Source: Halomicronema hongdechloris C2206 (GTDB lineage Bacteria; Cyanobacteriota; Cyanobacteriia; Phormidesmidales; Phormidesmidaceae). Taken from it: a stretch of 32,000 nucleotides of DNA. Positions 17,671-32,000 of this stretch are shown here, piece by piece. How positions within the stretch are numbered: position 1 is the stretch's first letter; every line of letters begins with the position of its first letter. Position numbers and translations under genes: made by a program. Location: contig NZ_CP021983.2 in assembly GCF_002075285.3 (NCBI RefSeq), positions 330,001 through 362,000 on the forward strand, in the 5' to 3' direction. A model generated the notes under the pieces. The model made no database searches, had not been told where the DNA came from, and was given only the letters and a program-made list of their open reading frames with translations.

Positions 17671-20070
17671 ATGTCATTATGGGATGCCCTGATCAAATAT
17701 CCTCTGGGACACCTGATTGAGCGCATGGGGCCGACTAAACTCCATCATGCCGCCGAGAATCACATGCGTCGCGTCACTCAGGCGAGTGCTTCCACCCCAC
17801 CCGCCTCTCATCATGCCCGACGACGGCGACGCTCCCCTCACCCTCCGCAGCGACGTCCTCTATATCGGCGTCCTCTATTTTGGGGGGTGTTATTAGTCGC
17901 GGCAGGCGTCGCCGGGGGAACAACCCGAGCCTATCGTTTCTGGGTCGCTGCCAACGCCACCCTGCCCGATGATATTTCCCGAGTGCTGACCTACCAACGG
18001 GGCGGCACCCTCACCATTGAGGCATCGGATGGCCGTATTTTGCAGAAGTTGGGACCGGCCACCCGAGAGAATATCCAATACGAACAGCTGCCGACTAATT
18101 TAGTGCAGGCCTTCATCGCCTCCGAAGATCGCCGCTTTTACGCCCACAATGGCATTGACTTCCAAGCCATCGCCCGGGCAGCTATGGCCAACCTGCGCCA
18201 GCGGGAAGTCGTTGAGGGGGCTAGCACCATCACCCAACAGCTGGCCCGCATCGTCTTTCTGAATCAGGAACTGACCTTCCAACGCAAGGTACGGGAGGCA
18301 CTACTGGCGCTGAAGCTAGAGCAAAATCTCAGCAAGCAGCAAATTCTCGAACGTTACCTCAACCTGGTCTATCTCGGCTCCGGGGCCTACGGAGTTGCCG
18401 ATGCCGCTTGGGTCTATTTTGGCAAAACGGTCGATCAGCTGACGGTGGCTGAGTCGGCACTGATTGCCGGTATGGCGCCAGCTCCCAGCCTCTACTCGCC
18501 TTTGAGTCAACCGGAAGCTGCTCGCCGCCAGCGCAATCGAGTCATTCGCCGCATGCAGGAAATTGGTGCCATTTCTGACCTAGAAGCCGAGGCGGCTCTT
18601 GCTACCGCTGTTACCACAACTCCCAATCAACCCAAGTATCTCTACAGCGAATTTCCCTATTTCACCATCCATGTTCAAAACCAGTTGGCTCAAATACTCA
18701 GCCCCGAGCAACTAGAAGCGGGCGGATTGGTGGTCGAAACCACGCTGAATATCGATTGGCAGCGCCAAGCTGAATCAGCTGTCACAACGGCCCTAGAACG
18801 GCTCGGGCCGCGGCAGCGATTTCGTCAGGGAGCCCTGGTCGCGATTGATCCCCGCAGTGGTGAAATCAAAGCCATGGTTGGGGGAACTGATTTTGACGAA
18901 AGCCAGTTTAACCGGGTTACTCAGGCACAACGGCAACCAGGCTCTACGTTCAAAACCTTTGTTTACACCACAGCGATTGCGGCTGGCTTTTCTCCGTATA
19001 AGCCCTATGTTGATGCCAAATTTGTAGTCGATGGCTATGAACCCAAGAACTATTCTGGAGACTACAGGGGAACCGTTCCGTTGCGGGACGCGCTGGCATC
19101 CTCTATCAATATCGTGGCAGTTAAGCTGCTGCTCGACGTAGGGTTCGATCCAGTCATCCAGATGGCCCAACGTATGGGGATTGAATCGGAACTACTGCCG
19201 ACCTATTCCCTTAGCCTTGGGGCCTCGGAGGTGACTCTGCTGGAACTGACAAGCGCCTATGGCACCCTGGCTAATCAGGGCAAGCATATGCCTACCCACG
19301 CCATTCGACGGGTGTTGAACAGCCAGGGAGAGGTTCTCTACGAGTCAGGGGTTGAGCCTCAGCAGGCAGTAGATGCTGACACTGCTGCCATCATGACTTG
19401 GATGTTACAAAGAGGTGGTGCGAGGCGGGCCACAGGTGGTAATGCAACCTTGGTCGTCCCGTGGCAGGTAAGACGGGCACATCCGAAAAAATCGGGATCT
19501 GTGGTTTGTTGGTTATATTCCCAGTTGGTAGCCGGGGTGTGGTTGGGGAATGACAATAACCAACCCGACTTGGGGGGCGAGTAAGTTCTGCTGCCTATAC
19601 CTGGCGCCTGTTTATGGAGGAGCTGGTCGAGTCTTTTGAAGAGGAGCATTTCCTGATCTGCCTAATCTTTCCAACCGCAAGGGCACCATCGAAGCGGAAC
19701 CGGTCAAGCCTAAGCGGGTACGGGCGGCTAAACCCAACCGTGGTGAGGAGAATGAAGGCACCAATAGGCAGGAGGCCCCGGCTGCTGCCCCCCCGCAGAC
19801 GAAGACAACGAAGGTACCGGGTCTGGAGAATCGGAACAACCTGCCAGGGAAGCCACTAATCAGGAGCAGGGTGAAGGTGGGGCTGCCGATGAAACGGCTG
19901 ATCCATCGGTAAGCCCGTCTCCGGCTGGTTCGGAGCAGCCAGTTGATGATGGCGGCAGTGCGCCTCCGGCTCCGGCTCCGGCTCCAGCTCCGGCTCCAGC
20001 CCCAACGTCTCCTCCGGCTGGTGATGCCACCTCGAGTGGCAGTTCCCCTGCGGGTGATGGGGAGGGATAA
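17671..20070 (+). pseudogene. Class A (bifunctional transglycosylase/transpeptidase) penicillin-binding protein, interrupted by about 9 single-base frameshifts between 19409 and 19849
   Basis: Glycosyltransferase motifs are present (EDRRFYAHNGID, GASTITQQLAR, RKVREALLALKLE). Transpeptidase motifs STFK (PGSTFKTFVY) and SxN (SSIN) are in the main frame. The KTG motif (GRPVAGKTGTSEKNRDLWFVGYIP) and the rest of the C-terminus can only be read by hopping frames. The last segment returns to the initial frame and stops at 20068-20070. The intact ORF as computed is 17671..19584. Confidence 0.85.
19962..20003 (+). repeat. Hexanucleotide coding repeat, (GGCTCC)-like x7, encoding (PA)n
   Basis: gcctcc ggctcc ggctcc ggctcc agctcc ggctcc agcccc, read directly. 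It translates as APPAPAPAPAPAPAP in the reconstructed PBP tail frame. Confidence 0.8.
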
Positions 20071-28584: not shown

Positions 28585-29550
28585 CTAGCAATCCAGGGGA
28601 CTTCTTACCCCACGGCCACCCCGATTCAGAACGTGGGTGTAGATCATGGTGGTTTTTACATCCTTATGCCCCAGCAGCTCCTGCACGGTGCGAATGTCGT
28701 AACCATCTTCCAGCAGATGAGTGGCAAAACTGTGACGAAACGTGTGGCAACTGACGTGTTTGGACACTTTTGCCTGGCGAACTGCTCGCTTGATCGCCCG
28801 CTGCAAGCCACTTTCGTGCAGATGGTGACGTCTTGTGACACCACTGCGAGGATCTTGAGAGAATCGTTCTGCCGGAAAGACAAATTGCCAGATCCACTCA
28901 CGGTCGGCATGAGGATACTTGCGCTCCAGCGCAAAGGGTAGATACACCGAGCCATGTCCTTGTGCCAAATCTTGATGGTGCAATTGTCGAACACCATGCA
29001 GATGGTCTTTGAGATCTGCGCTCACACTGGTAGGCAGCATTGTTCGGCGGCTCTCTCCACCTTTTGTATCTCTGACCGTTATCTGTTGTTGGGCAAAGTC
29101 GAGATCTTTGACCCGTAGCCGTAGGGCTTCGTTTAACCGCAAGCCACTGCCATAAAGCAGCTTGGCAACTAGCTGATAACTGCCGCTCAGATTTTGCAGC
29201 ACTGAGTTGACTTCATCAGGGGTGAGCACGGTCGGTAAATGGCGCGATCGCTTTGCCCGCACGGCATTGATATCCACCCCTAGATCTTGCTTCAACACCT
29301 GACGATAGAGAAACACGACCGCATTCAGCGCCTGATTCTGCGTTGAAGCCGAGACCTTACCCACCACTGCTAGATGGGTCAAAAACGCCTCTAACTCAGC
29401 TTCTCCCATCTCAGCGGGATGCCGCTTTTGATGGAACAAGATGTAGCGGCGAATCCAATAAACGTAGGTTTGCTCGGTGCGATAGGAATAGTGCTTTAGC
29501 CGGATTTGGTCTCGGACTTGGTCCAGTAGTTTGCGAGGTTGAGTTTCCAT
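28585..29550 (-). CDS. intI: Integron integrase (tyrosine recombinase, IntI family)
   Basis: Catalytic residues are in context: [16 protein letters not shown] (Arg), [12 protein letters not shown] (His-x-x-Arg), [14 protein letters not shown] (His, Tyr). The IntI-specific insertion [50 protein letters not shown] is also present. The start is placed at METQPRK (ATG ending at 29550). The ORF track extends to 29601. Confidence 0.92.
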
Positions 29551-29619
29551 CAGTGGTAGATGCAGTACATACGTATTTACTTTGACGTATGTTTGGCGCA
29601 ATATCCTGAGAAAACGCGG

Positions 29620-29781
29620 CAGCTATACTGAAGCTTTCAATATATCTACCCAATATAAACGTACTATATGGACAGCTTGCAGCCTATCCGCCGAATTGGG
29701 CGAGATATACTGCGATTAATCCATATATCTGCCCCAAACGGGGTAGATATACTGAAGGAGTCGATCTAATAAGAGTTGGAC
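29620..29781 (+). other. Candidate attI recombination region with crossover core GTTGGAC (29775-29781)
   Basis: It lies between the intI start and the first cassette. Five copies of a ~10-12 bp motif alternate in orientation and precede a GTTRRRY match. TTGGAC is the exact complement of the R'' core of cassette 1. Confidence 0.55.
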
Positions 29782-30630
29782 AGCGCTCGAACACGATCGT
29801 GAAACGCACAGTGCCCGATGAGAGAAGTGCTATCTGAACACCTAGCCACGTTCATCCGGTCCCTCCCGGAGAAGCGCGAGTACGCCCGCGACGATCTTCT
29901 CGTTCCTGCGCTGAAGGTCGCCGAGGATGCCGACAAGGGGCTTGCCGTGTACGACGCTCCGTTCGGCTGGGGCAACCAAGAAGCGCGTGTGGCCCTGATT
30001 GGCGTGACGCCGGGTTTCACCCAGATGCAGATTCTCTATCGCGTAGTGCGGAGGCACCTCCTGTTGGGTGCGAGCCCCGAAGACGCTTGCAGGTTGGCCA
30101 AGTACGAAGCCAGCTTTGGTGGCACCATGCGCGGGAATCTCGTTCGGATGCTGGACGAGCTCGGGGTGCCGGAACTCCTCGAGGTCGCATCCACCGCCGA
30201 TCTCTTTGGTTCCAGTTCCCATCTTCTGCACACCACTTCGGCTGTTCGGTACCCGACGTTCCTCCACGGGCAGAACTACACTGGCAGTCAGCCGCGGCTC
30301 GTGAGGTCCGCCTTCTTGATGCGATACGTTCGGGACGTTCTTGCGCCGGAGCTGTCCCGGCTCCATGCTGCAGTCTTCGTTCCACTCGGCAAGAGCGTCG
30401 CCGAGGCCTTGGAGCTACTGGAGACCGAGCAGCGCATCCCGGCTGGTCGAACGCTACATGGATTCCCACATCCATCGGGCGCGAACGGTCACCGCGCGCG
30501 GCAATTCGAGAAGGGGAAGCCCGCGATGAGGCGGCGGTTCGAGGAGATCTTGTGTGGAGGTGCCTCGGCGGGCGCTGTCCAACAACAGCATGCAGCGGAC
30601 GGCGCTGCGCGCCGCCGCTGATGCCACACG
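29776..30630 (+). mobile_element. Integron gene cassette 1 (855 bp)
   Basis: It starts with TTGGAC after the attI G and ends with the G of GTTAGGC. Its own R'' (GTCCAAC, 30577-30583) is the reverse complement of G+TTGGAC. Confidence 0.75.
29818..30621 (+). CDS. Protein with a uracil-DNA glycosylase superfamily-like fold, specificity unknown
   Basis: 267 aa with GC-rich codon usage. VALIGVTPGFTQ resembles UDG motif A (G-x-x-PG, compare GINPG and GEAPG). LHGFPHPSGANG resembles motif B (HPS). The stop codon lies inside attC. There is no obvious SD. Confidence 0.5.
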   Translation: MREVLSEHLATFIRSLPEKREYARDDLLVPALKVAEDADKGLAVYDAPFGWGNQEARVALIGVTPGFTQMQILYRVVRRHLLLGASPEDACRLAKYEASFGGTMRGNLVRMLDELGVPELLEVASTADLFGSSSHLLHTTSAVRYPTFLHGQNYTGSQPRLVRSAFLMRYVRDVLAPELSRLHAAVFVPLGKSVAEALELLETEQRIPAGRTLHGFPHPSGANGHRARQFEKGKPAMRRRFEEILCGGASAGAVQQQHAADGAARRR

Positions 30631-30636
30631 TTAGGC
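30577..30636 (+). other. attC site of cassette 1 (60 bp)
   Basis: R'' is GTCCAAC (30577-83) and R' is GTTAGGC (30630-36). An inner stem pairs 30588-30605 with 30609-30624. G30592 and A30599 are unpaired on the R'' side, and there is an unpaired spacer between the R and L boxes. Confidence 0.8.
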
Positions 30637-31139
30637 GGCGCTCCGCGCACTCGGAGGTACGACCATGGAGCTCGTATTCGCCCTACTCGTTGTCGCGATT
30701 CTCGCTAGCCTGCCTGCAGCCGTGCTCGTTGTTGGCGTCTTCACAGCTCACGCCAGGCCCGACTCGCCTCTGCTTCGGCACTGGCGGCTCGTTGCCACCG
30801 TCGGTTTCTCGGCCTGGGCCTTGCTCACCCTGGTCTCGCACCTCTCCGACGCCCCTGGCTACACGGGCATCGGTTCCGGTCTTGGCATTCTCCTTTTGGT
30901 GTTCGTCTTTATCGCCCGCTCCAGAGCTTCCACTCTCTCCTCGGGCACGGCATAGCCGCCCAGGGTGCATCGCGCCGCCTAACAAGGCGCTGCAGCTGAC
31001 GAGCGCCACGGGAGTCGAATCGGTCCAACGCCGCCCAAAGCGCGCTCCGCGCGCAGGGCGGCTCGTGCCAGCTGGCGGCCACCTCCTGTGGCACAATCGG
31101 GGCTCCACCAGCGGCGCTCGCAGCTGAGCGCCTGATCCG
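30631..31139 (+). mobile_element. Integron gene cassette 2 (509 bp)
   Basis: It starts with TTAGGC. Its own R'' (GCCTAAC, 30977-83) is the reverse complement of G+TTAGGC. It ends with the G of GTTAGCT. Confidence 0.7.
30665..30955 (+). CDS. Small hypothetical membrane protein (3 predicted TM helices)
   Basis: GGAGG at 30653-57 lies 7 nt upstream of the ATG. The 96-aa product has hydrophobic stretches LVFALLVVAILASLPAAVLVVGVF, LVATVGFSAWALLTLV and GIGSGLGILLLVFVFIA. Confidence 0.55.
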   Translation: MELVFALLVVAILASLPAAVLVVGVFTAHARPDSPLLRHWRLVATVGFSAWALLTLVSHLSDAPGYTGIGSGLGILLLVFVFIARSRASTLSSGTA

Positions 31140-31145
31140 TTAGCT
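30977..31145 (+). other. attC site of cassette 2 (169 bp, long variable centre)
   Basis: R'' is GCCTAAC (30977-83) and R' is GTTAGCT (31139-45). A 21-bp stem pairs 30986-31007 with 31113-31132, with G30992 and A30999 unpaired. The bulges have the same identity and 6-bp spacing as in attC1. Confidence 0.7.
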
Positions 31146-31246
31146 GTCTGCCTACAGCAAGCATCTACCTGTGGACGCTCCTGGAAGTTTGGGGCATCTT
31201 AGACTTATGCCTTAATCAGTTACCGCTGGAATGGAGTAGCTAGAGA

Positions 31247-32000
31247 ATGAGTAGCTCTGCTTACGAAGGGTTCAACGAAGAGAGCTTCTTCGACCGTGTT
31301 GAAGCTCAGTTTGTTAAGAAAGCCCCTAATTTGTCTCAGACGCTTAACATTGCCGTCATTGGAAAAGTCAGTGCGGGGAAAAGTTCCTTAATTAATGCCT
31401 TGCTTAAGCTGAGTCGTCGGCAAGCGTTAGAAATTGCTAAAGTTGGTGCCACATCAGGAGTAACTACTGATCTAACAATCCTCAAGCTAGATGAAAAAGT
31501 ACATCTTGTCGATTCCCCTGGGCTTGATGATGTTCGTACTGAGAATAGCGAGCTAACAAAGAAGTTTCTTAAGCATATAGATGTTGGTATATTTGTAGTA
31601 ACTGGCTCCTCAGATTCCTCACAAAAGAAAAACTTAGATGATTTGCGACAGCATTGCGATGCTATTTTTGTCGTCCTAAATAAAATCGATGAATGGGATG
31701 ACTTAGATCCATCTGTCTTAGAAGATATTATTCAACAGTGGAAGACTGATCTTGAAGTAGAGAAAATATACCCAACTTGTGCAAAGGGTTACGATCCTAA
31801 AAGTCGTCTCCCTACAATGGATATCAGAGGTGTTGCAAAACTCCGGAATGACATTGGGGATTTCCTTGAAAAAAAAGGTAAAGACCTATTGTTAGCTAGG
31901 CACATGGCCCAGAAACAATCTCATGCGGTTAAAATTATTGCAGTAGCTTTAGCCGCTGTAGCTGGAGAAGCTTTTATACCTGGTAGTGCCATTTATATTA
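31247..32000 (+). CDS. P-loop GTPase (50S-ribosome-binding-GTPase/HSR1-like domain) with a hydrophobic DUF697-like C-terminal region; 3' end outside the window
   Basis: The frame is open from the ATG at 31247 to the window end, so it is absent from the ORF track because no stop is reached. GTPase motifs are G1 GKVSAGKS, G3 DSPG and G4 NKID. It is followed by AVKIIAVALAAVAGEAFIPGSAIYI. GGAG lies 10 nt upstream. A counted line is about 37% G+C. Confidence 0.8.
   Translation, partial: MSSSAYEGFNEESFFDRVEAQFVKKAPNLSQTLNIAVIGKVSAGKSSLINALLKLSRRQALEIAKVGATSGVTTDLTILKLDEKVHLVDSPGLDDVRTENSELTKKFLKHIDVGIFVVTGSSDSSQKKNLDDLRQHCDAIFVVLNKIDEWDDLDPSVLEDIIQQWKTDLEVEKIYPTCAKGYDPKSRLPTMDIRGVAKLRNDIGDFLEKKGKDLLLARHMAQKQSHAVKIIAVALAAVAGEAFIPGSAIYI

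What the first reader, a model, noticed from the sequence alone, without database searches (positions are those of the whole stretch)
29818..30621. Cassette 1 encodes a stand-alone UDG-fold protein, a candidate modified-base glycosylase or defence gene
The 267-aa product has two motifs in the right order and spacing for the uracil-DNA-glycosylase superfamily. ALIGVTPGFTQ matches motif A (G-x-x-PG) and HGFPHPSGANG matches motif B (HPS). The rest of the protein and its basic, Ala/Gln-rich tail do not match any UDG family I can recognise.

It is a single-gene, promoterless, high-GC cassette in an integron. Established knowledge is that chromosomal integron cassettes have been shown to be enriched in small anti-phage systems. 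Glycosylases of this superfamily that excise modified phage bases (for example Brig1) act as single-gene defences.

Inference: this may be a glycosylase aimed at non-canonical (phage or plasmid) DNA bases rather than a repair enzyme. A housekeeping UDG would not be expected on a mobile cassette of foreign composition.
Basis: partly seen in the sequence, partly recalled or inferred. Interest (0 to 1): 0.75.

Follow-up and report, generated by a model that had tools for sequence, protein, structure and literature searches.

The report
Mobile integron cassette encoding divergent UDG-fold enzyme

Summary
ORF 29818-30621 (+) encodes a 267-aa protein identical to Halomicronema hongdechloris XM38_033600. 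It is the attI-proximal cassette (29776-30630, 63% GC against 57% host) of a two-cassette integron with an intact IntI. AlphaFold2 (pLDDT 92) plus Foldseek return UDG-superfamily structures as all the best-scoring matches (UdgX, SMUG1, TDG, MUG), all distant. 40 of 56 relatives hit Pfam UDG. The odd Ala/Gln/Arg tail is encoded by the 60-nt attC, which overlaps the stop codon. Relatives at 51-83% identity carry the same cassette boundaries in other arrays, and dN/dS is 0.13-0.28.

The family is discrete (about 1,900 clusters at 50% identity, 493 of 185,579 species). It is absent from phages and present on 29 plasmids. It fits none of UDG families 1, 2 or 4, nor UdgX: an invariant Thr replaces the catalytic Asp/Asn, the motif-B His is retained, and Ala replaces UNG's Leu wedge. 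It is not a Brig1 homologue and probably not a Brig2 homologue. PADLOC finds nothing, and neighbourhood evidence for defence is equivocal. In Bacillota the gene sits in ordinary, syntenic chromosomal contexts.

The defence interpretation is plausible but untested, and integron-borne UDG-like defence glycosylases were already reported (Brig2, 2025). Moderate interest.

The parts
28585..29601 (-). intI, integron integrase. The ORF runs from TTG at 29601; the likely true start is ATG at 29550.
   Evidence: TIGR02249 integron integrase 485 bits over profile 1-313 of 315; Pfam Phage_integrase plus Phage_int_SAM_4
29602..29781 (+). attI region (42.5% GC). It holds four copies of GGG[GC]NAGATATA (two direct, two inverted) and the recombination core GTTGGAC at 29775-29781.
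   Evidence: The same GTTGGAC/GTTGGGC core lies about 36 nt upstream of the start codon in relatives, where it closes a preceding attC.
29776..30630 (+). Cassette 1 (855 nt, 63.3% GC), a single-gene cassette
   Evidence: Boundaries are conserved in L097, L098, L001 and L009; analogous attC-flanked cassettes occur in L015 and L014
29818..30621 (+). ORF for the 267-aa divergent UDG-superfamily protein (identical to H. hongdechloris XM38_033600, WP_080814143.1)
   Evidence: AF2 pLDDT 92.3; Foldseek best matches all UDG superfamily; dN/dS 0.13-0.28
30001..30030 (+). Motif A: G62-V-T64-P-G66-F-T-Q69-M70-Q71. Thr64 sits at the catalytic Asp/Asn position. Q69 is invariant. Position 71 is E in 93 of 107 relatives and Q here.
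   Evidence: hhalign to E. coli MUG aligns G62-V-T64-P-G66 with G16-I-N18-P-G20; column counts
30229..30285 (+). Conserved core block: L-L-H138-T-T-S141 (strand beta-2) through N153-Y-T-G156. These are candidate base-reading residues.
   Evidence: H138 106/107, S141 106/107, N153 107/107, G156 107/107; strand assignment from the AF2 model. The functional role is inferred.
30463..30495 (+). Motif B: F216-P-H218-P-S-G-A222-N-G-H-R226, invariant across the family
   Evidence: hhalign to E. coli UNG aligns H218 with H187, A222 with the L191 wedge, and H225-R226 with H194-R195.
30577..30636 (+). attC1 (60 nt; R'' GTCCAAC, R' GTTAGGC). It overlaps the last 15 codons and the stop codon, and encodes the tail VQQQHAADGAARRR.
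   Evidence: Bottom-strand hairpin with two single-base bulges, -24.1 kcal/mol, z = -2.3; it is the only strong candidate found by the attC pattern-plus-fold scan in this region; conserved in L098, L097, L001 and L004
30665..30955 (+). Cassette 2 ORF: a 96-aa hydrophobic protein with no known family. It is a separate cassette and not part of the UDG unit.
30977..31145 (+). Probable attC2 (169 nt; R'' GCCTAAC, non-canonical R' GTTAGCT). GC falls from 67% to 41.5% just after it.

Best explanation
Cassette 1 is a bona fide mobile integron gene cassette. [quoted passage not shown]

The protein most likely works as a monofunctional DNA glycosylase. It would flip a pyrimidine-type base into a pocket formed by motif A (G-V-T64-P-G...Q69), the beta-2 block (H138...N153) and motif B. 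It would then cleave the N-glycosidic bond mainly by stabilising the leaving group through the invariant motif-B His218. This is how family-4 UDGs work, which also lack the motif-A Asp/Asn. A residue of the invariant G-A-N-G-H-R loop would fill the gap left in the duplex.

The gene spreads as a promoterless single-gene cassette, on plasmids and next to toxin-antitoxin or Abi genes. It is rare among species and absent from phages. Its most likely biological role here is therefore excision of a non-canonical base from invading (phage or plasmid) DNA, creating abasic sites that block replication. That is the mode of action of Brig1, Brig2 and Brig3.

Shown: the fold, family membership at superfamily level, cassette anatomy and mobility, and purifying selection.
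Inferred: catalytic activity, residue roles, substrate class, and the defence role.

The confidence given (0.45) is for the full statement including the defence role. The shown parts alone merit more than 0.9, and 'active DNA glycosylase of some specificity' about 0.75.
For: Fold and family:
- AF2 pLDDT 92.3.
- The best Foldseek PDB matches are all UDG-superfamily structures; the best viral match is a phage UDG.
- Pfam UDG is hit by 40 of 56 relatives.
- Motif A aligns to MUG and motif B to UNG.

Active-enzyme signature:
- About 35 invariant or near-invariant positions cluster in motifs A and B and the beta-2 block across 107 sequences at 45-83% identity.
- dN/dS is 0.13-0.28 among cassette copies.

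Mobility:
- The same cassette boundaries (5' GTTGGRC core, attC over the stop codon) occur in different arrays: L097, L098, L001 and L009.
- A 51%-identity homologue lies inside a four-attC array next to an IntI fragment in L015. L014 has an attC over the stop codon.
- IntI homologues lie within 8 kb in 3 of 80 genome loci.
- 29 plasmid records carry the family.

Accessory or defence-like neighbours:
- PD-T4-5/Abi gene adjacent on Caballeronia p2, and a PDC-S65 candidate in L007.
- Phd/YoeB and ParE/RelB toxin-antitoxin pairs adjacent.

Distribution:
- Present in 493 of 185,579 species genomes.
- 1,938 clusters at 50% identity among 1.84 billion representatives.
- None in INPHARED, IMG/VR or PHROGs.

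Precedent:
- Brig1 (PMC11078745), integron-borne Brig2 (10.1101/2025.10.29.685425) and Brig3 (10.64898/2026.02.25.707755).
- Family-4 and DR0022 catalysis without a motif-A Asp/Asn (PMC9796141).
Against: - No experiment on any member of this family was found.
- There is no PADLOC model hit.
- There is no homology to Brig1, and Brig2 homologues are of a different size.
- The PADLOC scan of 112 neighbours showed no clear enrichment compared with a matched set of 112.
- Among the 80 best-matching genome loci, 55 are from Bacillota, and the recurrent neighbours there are ordinary chromosomal genes with genus-level synteny. That is more typical of a repair or housekeeping accessory gene.
- The pocket is invariant across phyla, whereas defence specificity determinants often diversify.
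- Only 1 of 7 integron UDG-like proteins tested by Getz et al. protected against their phage panel.
- The window subclade carries Q71 where 87% of the family has E71. If E71 is catalytic, this copy could be impaired.
Confidence: 0.45

Rival explanations
1. It is an accessory base-excision-repair glycosylase: a 'backup UDG' for deaminated or oxidised bases such as uracil, 5-hydroxymethyluracil, hypoxanthine or xanthine. Integrons and plasmids carry it as adaptive cargo for DNA-damaging environments, and it has no role against phages.
For: - Motif B keeps the UNG-type H-P-S...H-R arrangement. It includes the His that stabilises the uracil O2 in characterised UDGs (PMC9796141).
- The pocket residues are invariant from Bacillota to Proteobacteria, as expected for a universal lesion.
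- Bacillota members sit in syntenic, ordinary chromosomal neighbourhoods.
- Neighbour scans show no clear defence-island enrichment.
- Several UDG families lacking the motif-A Asp/Asn (families 4 and 5, DR0022) are repair enzymes.
Against: - The family is very sparse (0.27% of species), which is unlike a needed repair function.
- It is repeatedly captured as an integron cassette and carried on plasmids next to TA or Abi genes.
- The identical gene is present about three times in one genome.
Confidence: 0.3
2. It is a UDG-fold protein that no longer acts as a turnover glycosylase. It could bind a particular base or lesion in DNA, form a covalent DNA-protein crosslink like UdgX, or serve a plasmid or integron maintenance function.
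For: - The canonical catalytic residue of motif A is Thr.
- The Leu wedge of UNG is Ala.
- The best-scoring solved structures are UdgX entries.
- The window subclade has Q in place of the family's E71.
- A few members are fused to HTH or zinc-finger DNA-binding modules.
Against: - UdgX's defining R-loop (KRRIH) is not present in the sequence (motif from PMC10359453).
- The motif-B His and about 35 other positions are invariant under strong purifying selection, as in active enzymes.
- Families 4 and 5 and DR0022 are active without a motif-A Asp/Asn.
- Foldseek similarity to UdgX is weak (TM 0.38/0.47).
Confidence: 0.12
3. The ORF is not a functional gene in this genome. It would be a silent or decaying passenger cassette whose UDG-like motifs are relics.
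For: - No sigma-70-type promoter was detected in attI or the cassette.
- There is no obvious Shine-Dalgarno sequence.
- Fossilised copies with degraded att sites exist elsewhere (L095, L010-L012).
Against: - The reading frame is intact and every family-invariant residue is retained.
- dN/dS is 0.13-0.28 against six relatives.
- It occupies the attI-proximal position, which is the best-expressed one in integrons (established knowledge).
- The simple promoter scan does not cover cyanobacterial promoter types.
Confidence: 0.05

Closest known systems
Brig2 (integron-encoded UDG-like anti-phage glycosylase; Getz et al., bioRxiv 10.1101/2025.10.29.685425)
   Same: Both are UDG-superfamily, single-gene integron cassettes with homologues spread across phyla and often near mobile elements. 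The phylum list of Brig2 homologues resembles the one seen here; it includes Bacillota, Gemmatimonadota, Nitrospirota and one cyanobacterium.
   Different: Gene lengths implied by the windows in Table S7 put Brig2 homologues at 154-210 aa. This family is uniformly about 240-267 aa. No contig or accession overlap was found. Brig2's targets (5-(2-aminoethyl)uridine and 5-acetylaminomethyl-dU phages) are untested here.
Brig1 and Brig3 (UDG-superfamily glycosylases excising glucosyl-hmC or hmC from T-even phages; PMC11078745, 10.64898/2026.02.25.707755)
   Same: They share the superfamily and the stand-alone enzyme format. The proposed mode of action is the same: abasic sites in phage DNA. Brig3 uses an Asn as the duplex-filling residue, and this family has an invariant Asn223 in the equivalent loop.
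   Different: There is no detectable sequence relationship to Brig1 (hhalign probability 0.25%, BLASTP E 0.92). Brig1's motif A is GLNPG with Asn, and its closest solved structural homologue is a family-4 UDG that contains an Fe-S cluster (PDB 4ZBY). Brig3 is encoded in an operon with BapA, whereas this gene is alone in its cassette.
Family 4 UDGa, UdgX and DR0022-like UDGs
   Same: UdgX entries are the closest solved structures by Foldseek. These enzymes also lack a motif-A Asp/Asn, so catalysis is expected to rely on the motif-B His (PMC9796141).
   Different: This protein has no GE(A/G)PG motif, and Val63 replaces the Glu. It has only two Cys, so there is no 4Fe-4S cluster. It has no KRRIH loop. 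It carries a helical insertion of about 65 residues between motif A and strand beta-2, plus an N-terminal extension of about 50 residues. TM-scores are only 0.36-0.47.
Family 2 MUG/TDG and family 1 UNG
   Same: Motif A aligns with MUG's GINPG. Motif B has the same length and H-P-S...H-R frame as UNG's HPSPLSAHR.
   Different: Thr64 replaces MUG Asn18 and UNG Asp64. His218 replaces MUG's Asn. Ala222 replaces UNG's Leu191 wedge. A profile search of PDB sequences finds no UDG at E <= 10.

Membership tests
UDG superfamily (Pfam PF03167 / UDG fold) | Alpha/beta fold with a central parallel sheet, detectable by structure comparison | tested here: met
   AF2 pLDDT 92.3. The 23 best-scoring Foldseek PDB matches are all UDG-superfamily proteins: UdgX at probability 1.0, then SMUG1 and TDG, with MUG at rank 26 and target TM up to 0.57.
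UDG superfamily (Pfam PF03167 / UDG fold) | Motif A (G-x-x-P-G after strand beta-1) and motif B (H/N-P-S after strand beta-4) in order | tested here: met
   G62-V-T-P-G66 follows strand 58-62, and H218-P-S220 follows the strand at about 212. They align to MUG motif A and UNG motif B.
UDG superfamily (Pfam PF03167 / UDG fold) | Pfam gathering score (24.3 bits) | tested here: not met
   This protein scores 17.2 bits, E 0.0054. However, 40 of 56 relatives match at E <= 0.01 (best 1.5e-7), and some exceed 24.3 bits.
UDG family 1 (UNG) | Motif A GQDPY with catalytic Asp; motif B HPSPLS with Leu wedge | tested here: not met
   Motif A is GVTPG (Thr64). Motif B is HPSGAN, with Ala222 at the Leu191 position.
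UDG family 2 (MUG/TDG) | Motif A GINPG with catalytic Asn; motif B N-P-S-G/S | tested here: not met
   Thr64 aligns with MUG Asn18. Motif B starts with His, not Asn.
UDG family 4 (UDGa) / UdgX | Motif A GE(A/G/Q)PG; four-Cys Fe-S cluster; for UdgX, the KRRIH R-loop | tested here: not met
   Val63 replaces the Glu. The protein has only two Cys (C91, C245) and no KRRIH (sequence; motif definitions).
Brig1/Brig3 family | Detectable sequence homology to Brig1 | tested here: not met
   hhalign of A1 against Brig1 gives probability 0.25%, and BLASTP gives E 0.92. The Brig1 sequence came from the paper's supplement and was machine-read.
Brig2 family | Sequence homology to Brig2 (PSI-BLAST family of Getz et al.) | tested here: inconclusive
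   The Brig2 sequence is not in the held supplements. Indirectly, 32 listed Brig2 homologues have genes of 465-633 nt against 720-804 nt here, and share no accession with this family.
Brig-type defence glycosylase (function) | Protects cells against phages with a modified base, and excises that base in vitro | not testable with these tools
   This needs expression and phage challenge plus oligonucleotide assays.
Integron gene cassette | Bounded by a GTTRRRY core at attI or the preceding attC, and by its own attC (R''...R' imperfect palindrome folding as a bulged hairpin), next to intI | tested here: met
   GTTGGAC at 29775-81; attC1 at 30577-30636; IntI TIGR02249 at 485 bits; the same boundaries occur in other arrays.
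Known anti-phage defence systems (PADLOC-DB v2.0.0) | Match to a defence-protein HMM | tested here: not met
   0 families at E <= 1.

The most novel reading that the evidence does not exclude
This may be the founding, mobile member of a new UDG-superfamily family, defined by motif A G-[IV]-T-P-G-[WF]-T-Q-M-E and motif B F-P-H-P-S-G-A-N-G-H-R. It would be a single-gene anti-phage or anti-plasmid glycosylase with a base specificity different from Brig1, Brig2 and Brig3. Candidate substrates are uracil- or 5-hmU-derived thymidine replacements, as found in phages of Bacillota and soil Proteobacteria. With Ala in place of UNG's Leu wedge, it might also escape Ugi-type phage inhibitors of the host UNG.
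Probability: 0.25. Interest if true: 0.7.

Novelty: new member of a known kind. Interest (0 to 1): 0.5.

Why it matters
If the enzyme is a defence glycosylase, it would add a fourth sequence family, with a different active-site make-up, to the Brig-type 'base-excision immunity' described in 2024-2026. It would also extend that mechanism from Vibrio integrons to the environmental integrons of cyanobacteria, Acidobacteriota and soil Proteobacteria.

If it is a repair enzyme, it would define a new UDG family with Thr in motif A, and would show that integrons move DNA-repair functions.

Either way, the family is compact, highly conserved, single-gene and about 250 aa, so it is easy to test. The conserved cassette with its attC overlapping the stop codon is also a clear example of an attC site constraining a protein's C-terminus.

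Tried and rejected
- Sequence searches gave nothing: PDB with the single protein and with the family profile, NCBIfam, PADLOC and PHROGs.
- I looked for Brig2's sequence or accessions in the Getz et al. supplements, and tried to fetch two Brig2-homologue replicons. Neither was available, so only an indirect length comparison was possible.
- A 'short subfamily' of about 195 aa, suggested by partial plasmid alignments, was rejected. The annotated proteins are 255-267 aa with divergent N-termini.
- An exact look-up of the window protein's contigs, to find its two other genomic copies, failed.
- Neighbour clustering found no gene conserved across the family, so it is not a two-gene system.
- The PADLOC scan of 2 x 112 neighbours showed no clear enrichment.
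- The C-terminal extensions of longer homologues share no common domain.
- The UdgX-like crosslinker idea was rejected because the protein has no KRRIH loop.
- The family-4 Fe-S idea was rejected because the protein has only two Cys.
Full report
**1. Observation**

The ORF at 29818-30621 (+) is present and encodes 267 aa. It is 100% identical to the hypothetical protein XM38_033600 / WP_080814143.1 of the cyanobacterium Halomicronema hongdechloris C2206. They turn out to be the most conserved blocks of a large family.

Directly upstream on the minus strand (28585-29601) is an intact integron integrase, TIGR02249 at 485 bits.

Between the two lies an AT-rich attI region (42.5% GC). It ends in a GTTGGAC core at 29775-29781.

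The gene's 3' end overlaps a 60-nt attC (30577-30636; R'' GTCCAAC, R' GTTAGGC). Its bottom strand folds into a hairpin with two single-base bulges. My pattern-plus-fold scan finds no other strong attC-like candidate in this region.

Cassette 1 is therefore 29776-30630: 855 nt, one gene, 63.3% GC against 56.6% for the rest of the window. No sigma-70-type promoter or terminator was detected.

A second cassette follows. It holds a 96-aa hydrophobic ORF at 30665-30955 and a probable attC at 30977-31145. After that, GC drops to 41.5% and a dynamin/MMR_HSR1-type GTPase gene begins.

**2. What the protein is**

- Pfam UDG (PF03167) aligns residues 49-232 to almost the whole profile, but below threshold (17.2 against 24.3 bits).
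- 40 of 56 relatives hit the same model, best E 1.5e-7.
- An AlphaFold2 model built on the family alignment is confident (pLDDT 92.3, pTM 0.87). Only the last ~17 residues are poor.
- The 23 best-scoring Foldseek matches in the PDB are all UDG-superfamily structures: UdgX, SMUG1 and TDG, with MUG at rank 26. UdgX scores probability 1.0. All are distant, with TM 0.36-0.57 and 13-21% identity.
- The best viral match is a phage UDG.
- Neither the protein nor the family profile finds any solved structure by sequence. NCBIfam, PADLOC and PHROGs have no model for it.

**3. The tail**

The 'basic, Ala/Gln-rich tail' (VQQQHAADGAARRR) is encoded by attC1. The R'' box starts at codon 254 and the stop codon lies inside the attC. 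Close relatives keep the same tail because they keep the same attC. More distant relatives end about 20 residues earlier. The tail is a by-product of the recombination site and not part of the enzyme.

**4. The cassette is mobile**

Seven metagenomic or MAG relatives at 70-83% identity were compared at the DNA level.

- L097, L098, L001 and L009 have the same GTTGGAC/GTTGGGC core about 36 nt upstream of the start codon. In those loci the core closes a preceding attC rather than an attI.
- L097, L098, L001 and L004 have recognisably the same attC across the stop codon. In L009 the R'' box and the attC body are conserved, but no R' core was seen.
- In L095 and L010-L012 (Gammaproteobacteria MAGs) the same unit sits between an acyl-CoA dehydrogenase gene and SDR/carboxyltransferase genes. 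Both sites are degraded there, so this is a fossilised insertion.
- In L015 (Vicinamibacterales), a homologue at 51% identity lies inside an array of four attC sites next to an IntI fragment, again with an attC across its stop codon. L014 (52% identity) shows the same attC-over-stop arrangement.
- In L018 an intact IntI homologue lies about 750 bp upstream.

Pairwise dN/dS among the cassette copies is 0.13-0.28. The gene is therefore maintained by selection wherever it travels.

**5. The family**

An exhaustive profile search finds 1,938 clusters at 50% identity at E <= 1e-3 (731 at E <= 1e-30) among 1.84 billion representatives. The profile does not spill into the canonical UDG families.

In one-genome-per-species data the family occurs in 493 of 185,579 species. 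Of the 80 best-matching loci, 55 are from Bacillota (Paenibacillus, Exiguobacterium, Bacillaceae and others). The rest are from Gammaproteobacteria and Betaproteobacteria MAGs, Bacteroidota, Acidobacteriota, Gemmatimonadota and Chloroflexota.

It is absent from INPHARED phages, IMG/VR and PHROGs. It is present on 29 plasmid records, all as proteins of 255-267 aa.

Contexts outside Bacillota are often mobile or accessory:
- Phd/YoeB, ParE/RelB or PIN toxin-antitoxin pairs;
- tyrosine recombinases;
- an adjacent Abi gene that matches the PD-T4-5 defence model.

In Bacillota, the recurrent neighbour genes I read are ordinary: an ABC transporter, HtpG, an SDR, a LysR regulator and a response regulator. 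Synteny is conserved within genera.

I scanned 112 neighbour proteins from non-Bacillota loci and 112 from Bacillota loci against PADLOC. The two sets matched similar numbers of families (91 and 99), mostly generic ATPases, with only a few genuine defence genes in each. This gives no clear defence-island signal.

No neighbour is conserved across the family, so it is a stand-alone gene. Rare fusions are to HTH_3, a zinc-finger DNA-binding domain and DUF7674. Other C-terminal extensions share nothing.

**6. Active site**

Profile alignment to E. coli MUG (sequence validated against 1MUG) places G62-V-T64-P-G66 on G16-I-N18-P-G20. The catalytic Asn of MUG, equivalent to Asp64 of UNG, is therefore an invariant Thr here.

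Alignment to E. coli UNG (validated) places H218-P-S-G-A222-N-G-H225-R226 on H187-P-S-P-L191-S-A-H194-R195. The leaving-group His is kept, and the Leu wedge is Ala. Both alignments are short and of low statistical weight (E 0.005 and 0.045). They agree with the positions of the strands in the model.

By simple offset from the motif-A Gly, the invariant Q69 falls at the position of Tth UDGa E47, DR0022 A50 and UDGb G64. That residue gates 5-substituted pyrimidines (PMC9796141). This correspondence is an inference.

Other invariant residues (R75, K95, F100, R105, H138, S141, N153, Y154, G156, E178) have no assigned role.

The window protein keeps all of these. It differs from the consensus at position 71, which is Q here and in 12 of 107 sequences, and E in 93 of 107. 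Among the relatives whose residues I read, Q71 is in the window protein and P0004, P0007 and P0014, while P0011 and P0017 carry E.

Families 4 and 5 and DR0022 are active without a motif-A Asp/Asn, and rely on the motif-B His and a motif-3 Asn. The Thr therefore does not argue against catalysis.

**7. Comparison with known defence glycosylases**

Brig1's sequence, taken from the Nature supplement, has no detectable similarity to this family: hhalign probability 0.25%, BLASTP E 0.92.

Brig2 is the closest concept. Getz et al. found 27 UDG-like proteins in 11 clusters in Vibrionaceae integrons and tested seven. One of them (Brig2) protected against phages with modified thymidines.

Brig2's sequence is not in the held files. 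Table S7 lists 32 homologues whose window sizes imply genes of 465-633 nt (154-210 aa). Members of the present family are 240-267 aa wherever I could read them. No accession or contig overlaps. I therefore consider Brig2 membership unlikely but not excluded.

Brig3 is described as a Brig1 homologue.

**8. Interpretation**

What is shown:
- this is a real, mobile, single-gene integron cassette;
- it encodes a UDG-fold protein of a distinct family;
- the family is under strong purifying selection, with an enzyme-like conservation pattern.

What is inferred:
- it is an active monofunctional glycosylase that uses His218 for leaving-group stabilisation;
- its substrate is a pyrimidine-type base;
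- in this context, it acts on foreign DNA.

I put about 0.45 on the defence-glycosylase reading, about 0.3 on an accessory repair enzyme, about 0.12 on a non-turnover binder or crosslinker, and about 0.05 on a silent passenger.

This is a new, untested family of a known kind.

**9. Limits**

- No residue-level structural superposition was possible.
- The attC calls rest on core motifs, folding and cross-locus conservation, not on a dedicated attC model.
- ORFs in the fetched loci were called crudely.
- The PADLOC comparison is only semi-quantitative.
- The Brig1 sequence was machine-read from a PDF.

Noticed in passing
window 29818-30621 (whole H. hongdechloris genome): The identical 267-aa protein carries three GenBank protein accessions from the same genome (ASC69405.1, ASC69414.1, ASC72403.1). 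This implies about three identical gene copies. Two of them lie roughly nine genes apart elsewhere in the chromosome, possibly in a second array or a duplicated cassette.
   Followed up: partly
window 29602-29781: The attI region contains four copies (two direct, two inverted) of a GGG[GC]NAGATATA unit at 29638-51, 29698-712, 29721-35 and 29740-54. It also contains a second copy of TGGACAGC at 29669, matching the recombination core at 29777. These are plausible IntI accessory binding sites, and the TATACT parts could be -10 boxes for cassette expression.
   Followed up: partly
window 30665-31145: Cassette 2 encodes a 96-aa, very hydrophobic protein with no match in Pfam, NCBIfam, PADLOC or PHROGs. 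Its attC is long (169 nt) and has a non-canonical R' (GTTAGCT).
   Followed up: partly
window 31150-32000: Immediately after the array, GC drops to 41.5%, far below the host's 57%. An ORF starting at 31247 encodes a dynamin/MMR_HSR1-type GTPase and runs off the window. It could be another foreign insertion or a third cassette.
   Followed up: partly
L095 3800-4750; L010, L011, L012 around 8000: In Gammaproteobacteria MAGs, the same cassette sits between an acyl-CoA dehydrogenase gene and SDR/carboxyltransferase genes. Its attC and 5' core are degraded. This is an example of a cassette fixed outside an integron.
   Followed up: partly
window 19165-19320 (+): A 156-nt candidate attC-like imperfect palindrome (GCCCAAC...GTTGAAC, 7 of 7 core positions paired) lies about 10 kb from the integron. 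It may be chance or an orphan attC.
   Followed up: no
L052 10762-11814 (-) and equivalent positions in L053, L061, L068, L085: Exiguobacterium loci share a conserved 350-aa neighbour one to three genes from the UDG-like gene. It contains the motif LTVATNPSAG, which looks like a UDG motif-B variant. It was not examined.
   Followed up: no
L018 6139-8786: In a Binatia MAG, an intact IntI homologue (61% identical to the window's) lies on the same strand as the UDG-like gene and about 750 bp upstream of it. No canonical attC was found by my scan. This may be an integron of the inverted-integrase type.
   Followed up: partly
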